A DNA stretch of 64,000 nt from Pseudomonadota bacterium (GTDB lineage Bacteria > Bdellovibrionota > Bdellovibrionia > Bdellovibrionales > Bdellovibrionaceae): positions 114,998 to 178,997 of the forward strand of contig JBEGVH010000040.1 of assembly GCA_041178425.1 (NCBI GenBank), written 5' to 3'. Shown here one piece after another: positions 48,001-54,000 of the stretch. The position numbers are program-made. Every line of letters begins with the position of its first letter. The first letter of the stretch is position 1.

Positions 48001-51000
48001 GAATTTGTGATTTTAAAAAAGAACCTAGCTCGCTAAGGACGTTCAAAAACACTTCAGTTGGGTTCAAGCTCCCTATCAATAAAGGTTTTAATGGTAGAGC
48101 CGTTCGTAAAAATACTTTGCGTACAATCTGGGGTGCCGCGACTTGTGATACCAACAAGGTAAAGACCATCTGGCGTTTTGATGAACGCTGGGCCCCCTGA
48201 ATCTCCTCGGCAAACACCTGTTCCATTGAATTGATCAATGGAGAACTCGCTCGTCGAATAATGAGGGTTTGTGATGTCGACGATGGCCCATCGTAGGACC
48301 CCTGAACCCTGGGGTTCCTGATTCTGGAAATAGCCAAAACCAACAACCCAAACCGGCATTCCTGTACCAATCACGTCCATGAATTCAAAAACCTCGATCG
48401 GGTTATAGTCGCCAGGAAGCGGGTTGGCTATTTCAACGAGCGCCAAATCAGATCGATTATGTGGGGCTATAGGATCATAATCGGGATGAATAATGACATT
48501 TTTCAAACGATCAAAAGGGCTGTCTGAACGAAAAGTGGTATCAAAAAAAACAAAGTGATTGGTGATAGCGCCGAGAACGCAATGAGCAGCAGTAATAAGG
48601 TGACGAGAGTTGATCACCACGGCTGTGCAAATTGTTTGGCGCTTTTTATCGAATAATCCAACCGTGTGTTTTCGAAGGCTGGAAAACGCTCTGACATTTT
48701 CGCCTCTCAAAATATAGTGAGCGTCTTGGGGTGGAGAAAGTTTTGAGGCAAGTGAGGTGAGAGAACGAAGTTGGCCGCTAGGTGGTGCCGACGCGGGTGC
48801 GCATTGGGTGATCCCCAAAAATAATCCAACCGCGACAATACACAGTAAAAAGAACTGAAGGTGTCGAAGAATCAAAAAAACCCCTTTGAAGCGTTACCAT
48901 GACTTACCTTGGAACTGGCTCGCTGAACAAAGGGCTAATTTGAAAAAGAAATTTTTTTAGGTTTGAATCTTTTCGAATGTCCATGGTCTTGAGGATGGAA
49001 TCGATAAAAAAAACGGGGAACCGTTGGTTCCCCGTTTGAGTAATCTCAACAATAGGACGACTTAGTTTTGATACATTCGAATGGAATGTAGAACTTTTTC
49101 AATTGGACTGTTGCGTATTAAAAGGCTGTTGATATCCGAATCCACTCGGTAGTCGATAGATTGGCTCACACCATCTTTATTGACGCTGAGGCGCAGTTTA
49201 AAGGGATCTGGAAGCTTAGTGACCTCCACTATCGAGCCTTCCGTGATGGCGCCAAAATTGAGTTGGTACTCAGCGACCCCCACTCCCAGTGTATTTTCTA
49301 CCATTCGTTCCATCGGACGAGCTCCAAACTCAGGGCTTCGGCCATACACCGAAATGAATAATCGCGTGGGAGCGTCAACCACCATATTCCACTCAAAGTT
49401 CTCCTTTATTTTGGCGAGTTTCTTATCCACAAGGATATTGGCAAGCTGACGAAATTCAGTGTCGCTGAACGGTTTAAAAATACTTATCGCATCAAAACGG
49501 TTCAGGAAACTCATTCGAAAGTGCTGCTTTAAATCGGCCATGACGAGCGCTCGGAGATCTGGGTGAGTCGGGTTTTTAAGCACCACATCTGACGCCGCAT
49601 TTGTCGTCATGATAATGAAAGCGCCACGGGCAAAGAGCGGTCTTTGATAGGGGTCGTAAAAAACTCCTTCGTCCATCATGAAGTAAAGCTGATCCAGAAC
49701 CTCGATCGAGGCTTTGTCGATTTCCTCAAAAAGATAGACGGCAAAAGGAGTGTTGGTGAGGTGGCGAGACATGACTTCTTGAAAGTTCTTGAAGCTGCTT
49801 TTCTCTTTGTAAGTGGTCATATCCATGGTGATGAGTTTCATTTGCATGAAATCAGCCATTTTCTTTGCCACGTAGCTTTTGCCAGTTCCTGTGGGACCAG
49901 CAAGTAGGGCCGTCGCCACGGGCTTGTCGTCGGTTCGTCCAGCAACAAACCCATTTTTTGCGAGACGAACGAGGTCTTTCTTGCCTTCCACCACGCCAAC
50001 AACATCGCTATTAAGATTGGCTTCGAGATTTTTGATAACAGAAAAATCGCGATCAATGAACCAAGCAGGGACCTGAGCAATCGTTAGAACAGCTCGTCGT
50101 GCTTCTTCGCGTGTGAAGGTATGCTGTTTGATGACTTTGCCATAGGCTCTCGAAACAACAAAACCCTGATTAGAGCCTGTAGAATCGGAGTTGAGTACGA
50201 TCTTGAGTTTGTTAGTGTAAAAGAACGCTGTTCTTGCGCCAGCGGTGAGTCGACCGGTGAGCCGGGTTAGCGGATTCTGTGGATTGTTCGCATCGTAGAT
50301 GTCGAGGTGATCAAAGTTATTTTCAATGTCGAAAGAGCTAAATTCGAGCTGAATAGCATTGTAGCCGGGAGCTTCGATAAAGTACTCCCTGCGGCTATCA
50401 GGAGGGTAAGGATGTTCTGATTCAAAGCTAATTTTTAATTCTTCCGGTTTAGGCTCTTCACTCGCTCCCGTCCCTCGAACAAGAGCATTCAGCACTGAAA
50501 TTGTTCGGTCGGGCTCTTGGCGATTGGGCTGATAATAAGCAATATTTTTTACGATGTACTGCAAATCTTTATTGTTGAGTTTGAGATTGGGGTATAGCAA
50601 TCGAAGATAAGCCTCTGACAATTGCAGAGTTTGCTCCTGATTCAGCGGTGGCAAAATAAGTCGATCGCCGAAGGCCTCAAGAACGTATGAATTTCGCGAT
50701 CGAATAATTTCGTTGTATTCGAATTTGTCAATGAAAGCAATCGAACGCATTCGTCCGGCGCTAATATTCGCAACATACTCACGCTCAATTCCGGTTTCGT
50801 CATTACTATGCGAACCAATTCCAATGAGAGCACTCACAGAGTTAAGGTACATTATGACGTTTTTGGAATCTGAGGGCGCTAAAATTTTTTGTTGCCAGTA
50901 TTGGTCAACATCGCCCACGTAGCGGTGACCAGACTCTATTTTGCTCACATTGATTTCGGCATGCCACATATTACTCGGACATTGACTGCCGACTCGGCCC

Positions 51001-54000
51001 GAAGCGAGTCTTGCGAAAAGATAAAGATAAGCCTGTGAGGGTTCCCCAACAACCAACACCGATTTATTTTGCTGACTACCGCAAACGACCTCTTCGATTC
51101 TTTGAGCCAAATCGTCGAAGAGAGAGACTTCTTTCATGAATGTTGTTGGCTTTTTCCAAACCTCTGAAATTTGATAGGTGGTGTTTCCTGGCCCCATAAT
51201 AAAGCCAGACTCCTTCAAGGTGTTGAGATCCGGATCGGTTCCTGGTCTCGATTGCGCCCAAGTGATCGACGACACTAATGCCATCGCCCCGAAGAGTGTT
51301 TTTGATACTCTTGCTAAATTCCCCATAATTCCCCTCCAAAAAACGGTCTACTGACCGCTTAGTTTCAAAATCTTTAGAATTAACACGCGAAGACTGGTGG
51401 TCATGAAATCTTGACCCACCCGAAATGCGAGTACCTTTGATGCGGAGTCTCGATGACGAAGAAGAAAAGGTCTTACAAATTCGAAAAGAATAAATTTAAC
51501 ACTAGCATTGTAGGCGAAATCAAAGACCAGGCGCCTCATGAGCACTAAGGCAACGCCCTCCATCACATAGGTGCTCAGAGCTTGTGAAAGCAAAGAGTTA
51601 ATGGTTCCGAATGAAATAAAAAAGACGAAACGATTGAGTCGAGAGGTAATAAAAAATACCGGTCCCCCTAGTAAGGAGGCAATAAGCGTCATTACGATGT
51701 TTATGAGTGATTGGCGGTGAACGCGCTCACGACCATCGGAGGATTTCACGATGAAGGCCTCATTATGGCTCTCACTTAAAATAGAAATAACCGTTCTAGA
51801 ACTGATCTCAGAGACCGTCGTGAGGGATGTGTTGACTAGCGCTAAAAACAAGATGGTGGAGCGATGGAGTTTCCAACAGTCGAGCCATTTCATGGCTGGG
51901 GTGGCGATGATCCACCAGAGTTTAGAAAAAAAGTAGTCTAAGAAGCTTTGTGCCAGACGCAATCCCTGCGTCAATGCCTGTACCAACCAGGGCCTCACTT
52001 TGGACGAAAAGGTATAAATACGTCCTATTTATATTAAACCGGTACCAGAAATGCTCAGTCAAGATCGGCGGGGGGAGGCAAAAAAGATACGGATCAAGGT
52101 CTATTTCTAAAGGCTATTATCGATCATTCCATTAATAAAATACTGTCGATGCGCCTTCCAGGCGGGTAGAAGCGGGTGCGGGCTCGTTGGAGGCTCTTCG
52201 TCAGTCGGAAGAGTCAGTGAACGCCCTTTTTCAATGTAAATCTCTTGGCCATCAAGGTAGAGGTTCACATTGCGCCTTCCTGTTTTTAAAAGGGAGCGAC
52301 CGATCAGAGAGCTGGTCTTTGGCAGAGCAAAGAGATCTTCCAAGGTGGGAAGCAAATCGATGTGTTGAACGGGTTCTTCGAGATCCATCAAGTGTCTCTC
52401 TTCAGTGAGCTGGGCTCCTGGAAAATACATGAGCATTGGCACTCGAAAACTTCCAATGGAAGTTTGGTAAACCGAAAGATAACTTTTTGAAGTATGGTCG
52501 GCCGTAAAAATAAAAAGAGTGTCTTCAAACCACTTCGACCGGCGAGAGGCTTTAAAAAAGTCCCTTAGCATGGCGTCGGTATAAGCTATTGACTGCAAAA
52601 TGGGGATTGGGCCTGTTGGAAGTTGATCTCGATAAACCTCAGGAACTTTGAAAGGATGGTGCGAGCTTAAAGAGAAAAAAACAGCAAAAAAAGGCGAAGG
52701 TTCCTTATCGAGGGTTTCTCGGAAAAAATTTAAAAACGGTCCGTCCCAGATTCCCCAAGTTCCGTCGTCATCGCCCTCAGCAGAATACTCGTTTTTTCCA
52801 AAATATTTTTGAAAACCCAATCTTTGCGTGAACTCCTCAAAAAACATAGTGCCGTTGGCACCCCCATGGAAAAATCCAGTCCAAACACCTTTTTTAGCCA
52901 GTTCAAACCCTAAGGAGGGAAGGTTGTTTGTTTGAAACGAACTCGTCAGAAAAGGTTCGTCTGTGAGAGAGGGAATTCCTGCGAGCAAAGAGGGAAGGGC
53001 TTCAATTGAGCGTCGACCATTAGCAAAGCTATTTTCAAAGTATATTGAACTTGGTTGTAAGGAATCAAGAAATGGCGTGAACGATTTTTTTTCAAATTTA
53101 AGATTTTTGTGGTCAAGTCCCGTGTATTCCAAGCCAAAAGATTCCAAAACAAAGAGAACAACGTTCTTGGGTTTTTTACTCCACGGAAATAAGTTTTGGC
53201 CTTCGCCATTGGAATTGAGGAGGCCGTTAAATTGCTCTTGGTTGTTGAAATAATCAATTCGCTTGAGGCGTTTTTTTTGTAAGGAGTGCAGAGTCGTAAA
53301 GCTACTATTGAGCGTTAGGTGGGTCAGCCGAAAATCGCTACTCATCGCCGTTGCATGGGCTAGTTCAAGAGGTTTTGGTTGAGTTCCTCCGCGCGCTCCA
53401 ACAATCATCCCAAGAAGAAGCACCGAAGTGAGAATAAGACGGTGCCGAGGGCGACTGTAGACTTTTAAAAGAGGAGATTGTTCATTGAACCGTGGATTCC
53501 AACTGTGGATCGAACGTACGTACAACCATAGCAGGCTTACATTGATAATAATTAACAACCAATAGGTCGTCCAAAGAGCTCCAATTTTTCCCTTGGTTTC
53601 GCCGATAAGATAAAGACTATCGGTTGTCATTCGTCGGCCTGAGAAATGGATAAACTCCAAATCGATAATGTTTAGAACAAGAAAGGGAATATGAATAAAA
53701 AGAAATGTCATTCGAAGAACAAGTTCTTTGTATTTCTTTATTTTGGAGGGCCAAGGGACTATAGCTCCGATCAGGGGAATGAACGAGAGCCAAGCGAGGA
53801 TCGAAAGATCAAAACGAGCCCCTTGCAGAAAGGCCTTGATGAGTGAAGACAGGGAGGCGTGTTCAAACCAAACCTTCCAGTTCCAGGTGAGAAATTCAAT
53901 TCTAAGAAAAAAATAAAAGGCCAGCGTTGCTAGTAGCCAAACCAGAGTTTTAAGAAAGATTGAAAAGTCTGATTTGGCGACCGACATTAGGTGACCTATT

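What a model noticed while it worked through the whole genome (the two positions that open the first line are those of the whole stretch)
49062..51326. Exported ClpA/B-type Hsp100 with a CUB domain in place of the middle domain
g02724 is a two-ring ClpA/B-type AAA+ protein that has a Sec signal peptide instead of the Clp N-domain, a degenerate first Walker A, a CUB domain inserted where ClpB has its M-domain, and an intact second ATPase. It founds a family of apparently exported Hsp100 proteins.
Evidence so far: 64 full family members at 39-100% identity, then a sharp drop to ordinary ClpA. 59 of 64 have a hydrophobic N-terminal stretch. NBD1 GEPSxxY replaces GEPGVGK(T); NBD2 GPTGTGKS and EEIDK are conserved; C82 and C116 are invariant, as for a disulphide. 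The model (pLDDT 87) shows the beta-sandwich insert at about 295-400 and matches ClpA/ClpB/ClpC over the rest. Present in 2 of 81 phylum genomes, with the same neighbouring gene.
(Added by a program. Inside this text positions count along the whole contig: contig position 114,998 is position 1 of the stretch shown here. "Call 12" and the like, gene names such as g00115 and contig names such as C1 are that model's own, and its searches are not shown. The text may have been shortened before it was handed on; [...] marks where a part breaks off. The agent that wrote the report below was given it as the finding of a first reader that could run no searches.)

Follow-up and report, generated by a model that had tools for sequence, protein, structure and literature searches.

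The report
Exported ClpA-like ATPase with transporter partner
A relative of the cell's protein-unfolding motor ClpA appears to be sent out of the cytoplasm, and its gene travels with a membrane protein (an ATP/ADP-carrier family member in one lineage), which suggests some bacteria may run an ATP-powered machine in the periplasm, a space thought to lack ATP.

Summary
Confirmed and extended. The 754-aa gene (49062-51326, minus strand) belongs to a family of ClpA-type two-ring AAA+ proteins with a Sec-type signal peptide (my heuristic: 75 of 88 sequences against 5 of 110 ordinary Clp), a ribosome-binding site at that start, and a both-or-neither cysteine pair. Grip and power sit in different rings. 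(2) CUB is optional (15 of 88 lack it, including the deepest branches). (3) The gene travels with a transporter-like partner: an NTT/TLC ATP/ADP-carrier family gene directly downstream in one Verrucomicrobia clade (22 of 22 genomes with that gene), and an unknown 212-aa membrane-like protein in Bdellovibrionota whose other copies sit by unrelated signal-peptide ATP-using enzymes. Best reading: a periplasmic, low-force ATP-cycled chaperone fed by exported ATP. Export, ATPase activity, oligomer and transport are all inferred, none measured.

The parts
49062..51326 (-). Gene for the exported ClpA-type two-ring AAA+ protein (754 aa, P0001)
51255..51326 (-). Predicted Sec/SPI signal peptide, residues 1-24 (cleavage TWA|QS by my heuristic)
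   Evidence: lowest-conserved segment (0.26) ending before the conserved N-arm
51333..51337 (-). Shine-Dalgarno GGAGG before the signal-peptide ATG
   Evidence: none before the conserved internal Met64
50472..51134 (-). D1 AAA+ module, residues 65-285, catalytically degenerate
   Evidence: Walker A Lys 0 of 88, Walker B DE 0 of 88, no Arg in the R-finger segment in 86 of 88
51081..51083 (-). Cys82, first of a putative disulphide pair
   Evidence: both Cys in 82, neither in 5, one alone in 0, of 87
50979..50981 (-). Cys116, second of the putative disulphide pair
50913..50930 (-). D1 pore-1 loop GHRYVG (ClpA: GTKYRG), residues 133-138
   Evidence: aromatic/His plus aliphatic/Thr pair in 82 of 87; Val in 80 of 88 against Arg in 29 of 33 references
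50784..50828 (-). D1 pore-2 loop region LIGIGSHSNDETGIE, residues 167-181
   Evidence: highest mean conservation of the segments measured, 0.78; aligns with ClpA TIIGAGSASGG
50136..50444 (-). CUB domain, about residues 295-397, inserted at the M-domain site; optional in the family
   Evidence: E335 65, D339 72, D381 63 of 73
49212..50036 (-). D2 AAA+ module, residues 431-705, with Walker A, catalytic Glu, sensor 1, R-finger and sensor 2
   Evidence: K483, E535, T574, N576, R610, R670 in 88 of 88
49767..49811 (-). Site of the 12-residue deletion that removes the D2 GYVG pore-1 loop (residues about 506-520)
   Evidence: segment 26 aa in 87 of 88 against 38 aa in 30 of 33 references; G[YF][VIL]G 0 of 88 against 31 of 33
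51348..51986 (-). Conserved partner gene 'F2', 212 aa, helical, moderately hydrophobic, no known family; 21 bases upstream of the ATPase gene (ORF could start at 51998)
49011..49037 (-). Intrinsic-terminator-like hairpin (12-bp stem, T run) 25 bases after the ATPase stop, separating it from the trypsin gene
   Evidence: consensus match only

Best explanation
A two-gene module for ATP-driven work outside the cytoplasm. The ATPase is exported by Sec and cleaved (shown: sequence signs; inferred: export, about 0.9), forms a ring (inferred from the trans-acting R-finger) and hydrolyses ATP only in D2 (inferred, about 0.8). D1 is a dead, disulphide-stapled ring that keeps the substrate-gripping loops, with pore-1 recast from KYRG to a GYVG-like xYVG; D2 has lost its own loop, so D2 strokes must move the D1 loops. 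That predicts a low-force, ClpP-independent chaperone that binds, threads or releases unfolded or loosely folded envelope or secreted polypeptides and does not unfold stable proteins (inferred, about 0.5). The CUB is an optional outer-surface binding module. ATP reaches it through a co-encoded inner-membrane carrier: an NTT/TLC-family ATP/ADP exchanger working outward in the Verrucomicrobia clade, and the uncharacterised F2 protein in Bdellovibrionota (inferred from gene context only, about 0.55).
For: Signal peptide 75 of 88 against 5 of 110 ordinary Clp and 95 of 1760 internal windows; the 13 misses are 7 apparently truncated gene calls, 4 over-long starts from my own ORF caller and 2 signal-like ends failing the charge rule. 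Purine-rich SD-like stretch before the signal start in the window and, by eye, 13 of 14 loci, none before the internal Met. Cys pair both-or-neither. One member has a lipoprotein-type signal (P0064). The CUB's closest matches in this genome are two signal-peptide S8 subtilase-CUB proteins. D2 catalytic residues 88 of 88; IGF-type loop 0 of 88 against 21 of 33; the two ClpP genes in the genome are ordinary hits, the one inspected has no signal. PMC8666677 (abstract and section 11 read): ClpA with only D1 loops engages and translocates unfolded substrate but needs D2 loops to unfold folded ones. Among 61 Verrucomicrobia relatives, 24 have the ATPase and 22 the TLC gene; in 22 of 22 the ATPase 3' end lies about 30-45 bases upstream; the 35 genomes listed after that group have neither. 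Three of these genomes tested have no F2. F2: 13 full-length places in 12 of 401 genomes, 9 directly upstream of the ATPase; the other 4 lie by signal-peptide ATP users of unrelated folds, two classic AAA ATPases (L137) and PPDK_N proteins (L136, L138, L139). Metagenomes: ATPase directly downstream of F2 in 10 of 12 loci, 2 end at F2.
Against: No SignalP, proteomics or RNA data; my heuristic is permissive. Walker B is FEEID (Asp to Glu in 87 of 88), which could lower activity. D2-powered D1 loops have no precedent known to me; in the cited ClpA work D1 was still an ATPase. The TLC match is weak (Pfam E 7e-8 for L005, none for L004; TIGR00769 34 bits against a cut-off of 387), substrate and direction are unknown, and characterised NTTs import (PMC5381601 passages). 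The Verrucomicrobia linkage is one clade, so probably one event. F2 has no family or fold assignment and modest hydropathy (peak 1.6). G247 has the ATPase with no F2 and no match to the TLC query; G165 has F2 unlinked from it; G081 has a signal-peptide PPDK_N protein and no F2 match; G165 has a third such protein with no F2 within the 13 kb read. L138 and L139 look like one homologous context.
Confidence: 0.4

Rival explanations
1. Exported effector that works in another cell (prey or host) on that cell's ATP; the neighbouring NTT imports host nucleotides and the linkage reflects a shared parasitic or predatory role, not ATP supply.
For: Most members appear to be Bdellovibrionota (source names Bdellovibrionales and Oligoflexales), a phylum known for predators; characterised NTTs import (PMC5381601 passages); other signal-peptide Clp-type ATPases occur in these genomes; G247 lacks both partners.
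Against: Found in only 11 of 401 phylum genomes and 2 of 53 of the window's family, so not core predation gear; a disulphide and an acidic CUB suit an oxidising compartment, not a prey cytoplasm; F2 recurs beside unrelated exported ATP users.
Confidence: 0.2
2. Torsin-like nucleotide switch or scaffold: ATP cycling in D2 opens and closes a ring that assembles or releases an envelope complex, with no threading through the pore.
For: D2 pore-1 loop deleted in 88 of 88; dead D1; Torsins are signal-peptide Clp-related ATPases with non-canonical motifs (PMC7140721 passage).
Against: Both D1 pore loops are the best-conserved segments measured (0.75, 0.78) and pore-1 has gained a YVG grip; it keeps its own R-finger, unlike Torsins.
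Confidence: 0.17
3. Trans-side translocation motor (PTEX/HSP101-like): F2 is a small protein channel or docking site and the ATPase pulls cargo through or off the inner membrane.
For: Tight F2-ATPase operon; top VIA-align rows for F2 include NDUFA11-type complex I subunits and TIM22 (Z 7.0, 5.8); F2 also follows two classic AAA ATPases (L137).
Against: Those Z values are within what helical bundles give by chance; F2 also sits by PPDK_N dikinase-like proteins, which are not motors; Verrucomicrobia members do without F2; the ATP source would remain unexplained.
Confidence: 0.12
4. Not exported or not an ATPase: the hydrophobic N-terminus is an anchor for a cytoplasmic protein, or the protein is a nucleotide-binding receptor serving the importer.
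For: Export is predicted only; Walker B is non-canonical; the periplasm is described as devoid of ATP (PMC11366764 passage).
Against: Tripartite signal with small residues at -3/-1 and basic n-region, lipoprotein variant, CUB, Cys pair; R-finger, sensor 2 and catalytic Glu in 88 of 88.
Confidence: 0.08

Closest known systems
ClpA (class I Clp/Hsp100, TIGR02639)
   Same: Colinear D1-D2 fold; ClpA-type spacing after the D2 Walker A (20 residues in 87 of 88, as in the ClpA-like references); D2 catalytic set; D1 pore Tyr
   Different: Signal peptide instead of N-domain; D1 dead; D2 GYVG and IGF loops deleted; optional CUB; 142 bits against a cut-off of 993
ClpB/ClpC
   Same: Insertion at the M-domain site; no IGF loop (as ClpB)
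   Different: Insert is a beta-sandwich CUB, not a coiled coil; absent in 15 of 88; D2 indel is ClpA-type
Plasmodium HSP101 of PTEX
   Same: Hsp100 acting outside the cytosol (PMC6550532 passages: sits on the PTEX150/EXP2 pore; its signal peptide is recalled, not read)
   Different: Eukaryotic, ClpB-type with N- and M-domains; here bacterial, one live ring, no known pore
Torsins
   Same: Signal-peptide, luminal, Clp-related AAA+ with non-canonical motifs (PMC7140721 passage)
   Different: Torsins have one ring and no R-finger; here two rings and an own R-finger; Pfam Torsin below cut-off (19.9 against 27 bits)
Lig E periplasm-targeted ATP-dependent DNA ligases
   Same: Bacterial precedent for a signal-peptide ATP-using enzyme (PMC10799422 passages)
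   Different: Not an AAA+ machine; location predicted, not shown, in the passages read; no transporter partner mentioned there
NTT/TLC nucleotide transporters (PF03219)
   Same: The Verrucomicrobia partner passes the Pfam cut-off in L005; JGI labels homologues ATP:ADP antiporter
   Different: Characterised members import nucleotides; free-living members are uncharacterised (PMC5381601); the window's own partner F2 is unrelated

Membership tests
Class I Clp/Hsp100 | Two tandem AAA+ modules of ClpA/B D1 and D2 type | tested here: met
   (probability 99.9, 531 columns)
Class I Clp/Hsp100 | Catalytic D1 (Walker A Lys, Walker B DE, R-fingers) | tested here: not met
   0 of 88 for Lys and DE
Class I Clp/Hsp100 | Catalytic D2 residues | tested here: met
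   88 of 88 for K, catalytic E, sensor 1, R-finger, sensor 2; Walker B Asp is Glu in 87 of 88; activity not measured
Class I Clp/Hsp100 | D2 GYVG pore-1 loop | tested here: not met
   0 of 88 against 31 of 33 references
Class I Clp/Hsp100 | D1 pore-1 aromatic | tested here: met
   Y 65, F 11, H 5 of 88
Class I Clp/Hsp100 | Hexameric ring | not tested
ClpA | Clp_N domain and IGF/L ClpP-binding loop | tested here: not met
   no Clp_N; IGF-type 0 of 88
ClpB/ClpC | Coiled-coil M-domain | tested here: not met
   beta insert or nothing at that site
Torsin | Single AAA+ domain lacking the R-finger | tested here: not met
   two modules, R610 88 of 88
Sec/SPI substrate | Tripartite cleavable signal peptide | tested here: met
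   own heuristic only: 75 of 88 against 5 of 110; no SignalP available
CUB domain | Pfam PF00431 above cut-off, beta-sandwich | tested here: met
   29.4 against 21.4 bits; model
NTT/TLC (Verrucomicrobia partner) | PF03219 match | tested here: met
   L005 32.2 against 21 bits; L004 only MFS_1; precomputed PF03219 on the 120 homologues listed
NTT/TLC (Verrucomicrobia partner) | ATP/ADP exchange | not testable with these tools
   needs a transport assay
Mpv17/PMP22 or Tim17-type channel (F2) | Profile or fold match | tested here: inconclusive
   no Pfam match for 40 members, PF04117 does not hit the gene, VIA-align Z at most 7.0

The most novel reading that the evidence does not exclude
Some bacteria deliberately export ATP to the periplasm through dedicated carriers (an outward-working NTT, or the new F2 family) to run a set of exported ATP-dependent enzymes, among them a split-ring Hsp100 whose dead D1 ring grips and whose D2 ring powers: a bacterial counterpart of ER-lumen ATP supply and luminal ATPase chaperones.
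Probability: 0.35. Interest if true: 0.93.

Novelty: new variant of a known kind. Interest (0 to 1): 0.82.

Why it matters
Periplasmic chaperones are held to work without ATP. An exported Hsp100-type ATPase under strong selection on its catalytic residues, co-encoded with a carrier-like membrane protein in two phyla, gives a concrete, testable exception and names candidate ATP exporters. Separately, a natural Clp with grip in one ring and power in the other is a ready-made test of inter-ring coupling in double-ring AAA+ motors, and it gives a possible role to NTT transporters of free-living bacteria.

Tried and rejected
Complex prediction of F2 with the ATPase (residues 27-730): no verdict, score 0.00; not evidence either way. 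F2 as Mpv17/PMP22 (recalled pattern): not supported; ESM Atlas nothing at 0.9 or above; PDB sequence and Foldseek searches blank. Internal start at conserved Met64 giving a cytoplasmic form: no SD-like stretch. Downstream trypsin gene as partner: not shared with any of the 14 other loci compared and a terminator-like hairpin lies between. Trypsin-like N-terminal domain in P0172: by-eye only; BLAST and Pfam gave nothing. Exported ClpP partner: not seen (one of two N-termini inspected). Three extra genomes in the CUB-less search (G298, G056, G313) are ordinary ClpA. Weak F2 hit in G198 lies in a 689-aa ORF and was set aside. Other exported Walker-A proteins in the window's genome: 19 heuristic hits, none convincing by eye except this gene. 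No RNA holder listed; contigs cover the locus without joints (two runs may be the source). First tree run timed out; rerun on 60 of 120 rows. Earlier scan findings were not available. Literature: 10 searches; none of the listed titles or abstract starts describes a bacterial exported Clp ATPase or CUB-Clp fusion; only listings were seen for most, subscription papers are not covered and no supplements were read.
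Full report
Observation. The ORF at 49062-51326 (minus strand) gives 754 aa. Pfam finds CUB (303-391), AAA_2 and ClpB_D2-small but no Clp_N; all NCBIfam Clp models are far below cut-off. A homologue search returns 64 proteins at 39-100% identity and then ordinary ClpA/ClpC. The model (pLDDT 89.7) matches ClpA, ClpC and ClpB best, and a profile alignment to a ClpA is colinear from residue 69 to 714 with the CUB inserted at the M-domain site. The family is in 11 of 401 sampled genomes of the phylum; source names (Bdellovibrionales, Oligoflexales) point to Bdellovibrionota, which is an inference. An exhaustive profile search and genome loci widened the set to 88 distinct sequences, including a Verrucomicrobia clade.

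Export. My tripartite signal-peptide heuristic scores 75 of 88 family sequences, 5 of 110 ordinary Clp proteins and 95 of 1760 internal windows; the 13 misses are 7 apparently truncated gene calls, 4 over-long starts from my own ORF caller and 2 signal-like ends that fail the charge rule. The segment is the least conserved part (0.26) and ends before a conserved arm. An SD-like stretch precedes the signal start in the window and, by eye, 13 of 14 loci, and none precedes the conserved internal Met. C82 and C116 occur together in 82 and are lost together in 5 of 87, never singly; 75 of 88 have exactly two Cys after residue 25. C82 matches a Cys that 12 of 33 references also carry, so only C116 is new; the S-S distance could not be measured. 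P0064 has a lipoprotein-type signal. The CUB keeps an acidic triad (E335 65, D339 72, D381 63 of 73) that I recall as the calcium-binding CUB signature, and its best matches in this genome are two signal-peptide subtilase-CUB proteins. Export is likely but not shown.

Anatomy of the motor. Against 33 ordinary Clp references, D1 has lost the Walker A Lys (0 of 88), Walker B DE (0 of 88), sensor 1 and the R-fingers (no Arg in 86 of 88). Yet its two pore-loop segments are the best conserved measured (0.75 and 0.78, D2 large domain 0.73), and pore-1 reads GHxYVG where ClpA has GTKYRG (Val 80 of 88, Arg 29 of 33). D2 keeps Walker A, catalytic Glu, sensor 1, R-finger and sensor 2 in 88 of 88, with Walker B as FEEID, but lacks the 12 residues holding GYVG (0 of 88 against 31 of 33) and the IGF-type loop (0 of 88 against 21 of 33). 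So grip is in the dead ring and power in the ring without a grip. In ClpA, D1 loops alone suffice to engage and translocate unfolded substrate, while unfolding needs D2 loops (PMC8666677, abstract and section 11; PMC11570520, abstract). This predicts a low-force machine, with the caveat that D1 was still an ATPase in that work.

Origin. The spacing after the D2 Walker A is ClpA-type in 87 of 88. On a quick tree of 60 of 120 rows without the insert columns, the family is one side of a 100-support long branch whose attachment among Clp proteins is unresolved, and seven CUB-less rows branch outside all CUB-bearing rows (SH-aLRT 89-93, not starred; long-branch warning for P0182). This suggests export, D1 death and loop loss came first, the CUB was inserted later and lost more than once. 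15 of 88 lack it.

Partner genes. A 212-aa gene (F2) lies 21 bases upstream, with a terminator-like hairpin after the ATPase. It has 36 homologues with 25 invariant, largely polar or basic, residues, five long helices, modest hydropathy and no family or fold assignment. In the same 401 genomes it has 13 full-length places in 12 genomes; 9 are directly upstream of the ATPase. It is directly downstream in one Oligoflexales locus (L001), context is unclear in G405, and 10 of 12 metagenome loci have the ATPase next, 2 ending at F2 (some overlap with the genomes). The other 4 places lie by signal-peptide ATP users of other folds: directly after two classic AAA ATPases (L137), directly before and two genes after PPDK_N proteins (L136), divergent from one (L138) and three genes from one (L139); L138 and L139 look like one context. 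What these neighbours share is ATP use and a signal peptide. In Verrucomicrobia F2 was not found (3 genomes); instead a TLC/NTT-family gene follows the ATPase. Among 61 relatives, 24 have the ATPase and 22 the transporter, adjacent in 22 of 22; the 3 ATPase genomes without it have only the 5' part of the ATPase gene on a contig; the other 35 have neither apart from one in-group genome with neither (G615), counted separately. In a class-wide sample only 1 of 201 had the ATPase, so this is one clade and probably one acquisition of both genes.

Against. G247 has the ATPase with neither partner found. G165 has F2 unlinked from it. G081 has a signal-peptide PPDK_N protein and no F2 match, and a third such gene in G165 has no F2 nearby. 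The TLC score is weak, and characterised NTTs import nucleotides, though most NTT diversity is untested (PMC5381601, passages). F2 may not be a transporter at all.

Comparison. It works like a Clp/Hsp100 but fails membership of ClpA, ClpB and Torsin on defining features. Extracytoplasmic Clp-related ATPases are known in eukaryotes: HSP101 of PTEX (PMC6550532, passages) and Torsins (PMC7140721, passages). Lig E is a bacterial signal-peptide ATP user (PMC10799422, passages). The periplasm is described as devoid of ATP (PMC11366764, passage). The giant-gene preprint (10.1101/2023.11.21.568195, passages) lists AAA_5 and PPDK_N among domains of signal-peptide giant proteins but does not describe this family in the passages read. 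Ten searches listed no bacterial exported Clp or CUB-Clp fusion; coverage is open-licence papers only and no supplements were read.

Verdict. Real and well conserved; a new variant of Clp/Hsp100 with an unusual split motor, most likely periplasmic, and with gene-context evidence in two phyla for a dedicated nucleotide carrier. Confidence in the whole mechanism 0.4; interest 0.82.

Noticed in passing
L137:2377-5871: Two tandem signal-peptide classic (CDC48/PAN/FtsH-like) AAA ATPases followed without a gap by an F2 copy: a second, unrelated exported-ATPase module.
   Followed up: partly
L136:2300-9786, L138:6113-7684, L139:8226-9707, L322:4441-8832, L324:4500-7490: Signal-peptide proteins with a PPDK_N domain and an SHVQLL-type His motif, dikinase-like, rare (3 of 186 genomes at the threshold used); several sit by F2.
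   Followed up: partly
L132, L134, L135 (G165), L129 (G305): Further Clp-type AAA proteins, two with signal peptides by my heuristic (L135, L129), one fused to a VWA domain (L134), some beside VWA or protease-like genes.
   Followed up: partly
P0180, P0184, P0198, P0202, P0211, P0228: A separate set of proteins with signal-like N-termini and two or three tandem ClpB-D2-type modules, of unknown hosts; suggests exported Clp-type ATPases arose more than once.
   Followed up: partly
P0172: Deep-branching member with about 200 extra N-terminal residues after the signal peptide, trypsin-like by eye only.
   Followed up: partly
window 48054-48875 (-): Trypsin-family serine protease with a hydrophobic N-terminus just downstream; not conserved beside homologues.
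   Followed up: yes
G000:C21:65555-66859: The window's genome has a distant NTT-like gene elsewhere, without an exported ATPase beside it.
   Followed up: partly
L139:1-7713: Array of five signal-peptide LRR genes with an F2 copy embedded in it.
   Followed up: no
G000:C42:2757-4814 and C27:4531-4911: The genome's ClpB appears split across two contigs (685 aa and 126 aa pieces), probably an assembly break.
   Followed up: no
window 52107-55477 (-) and 56786-60553 (+): LTA-synthase-like sulfatase and DegP-like protease upstream; a MoxR/VWA (Bat-type) cluster further on; not shared with other loci of the family.
   Followed up: no
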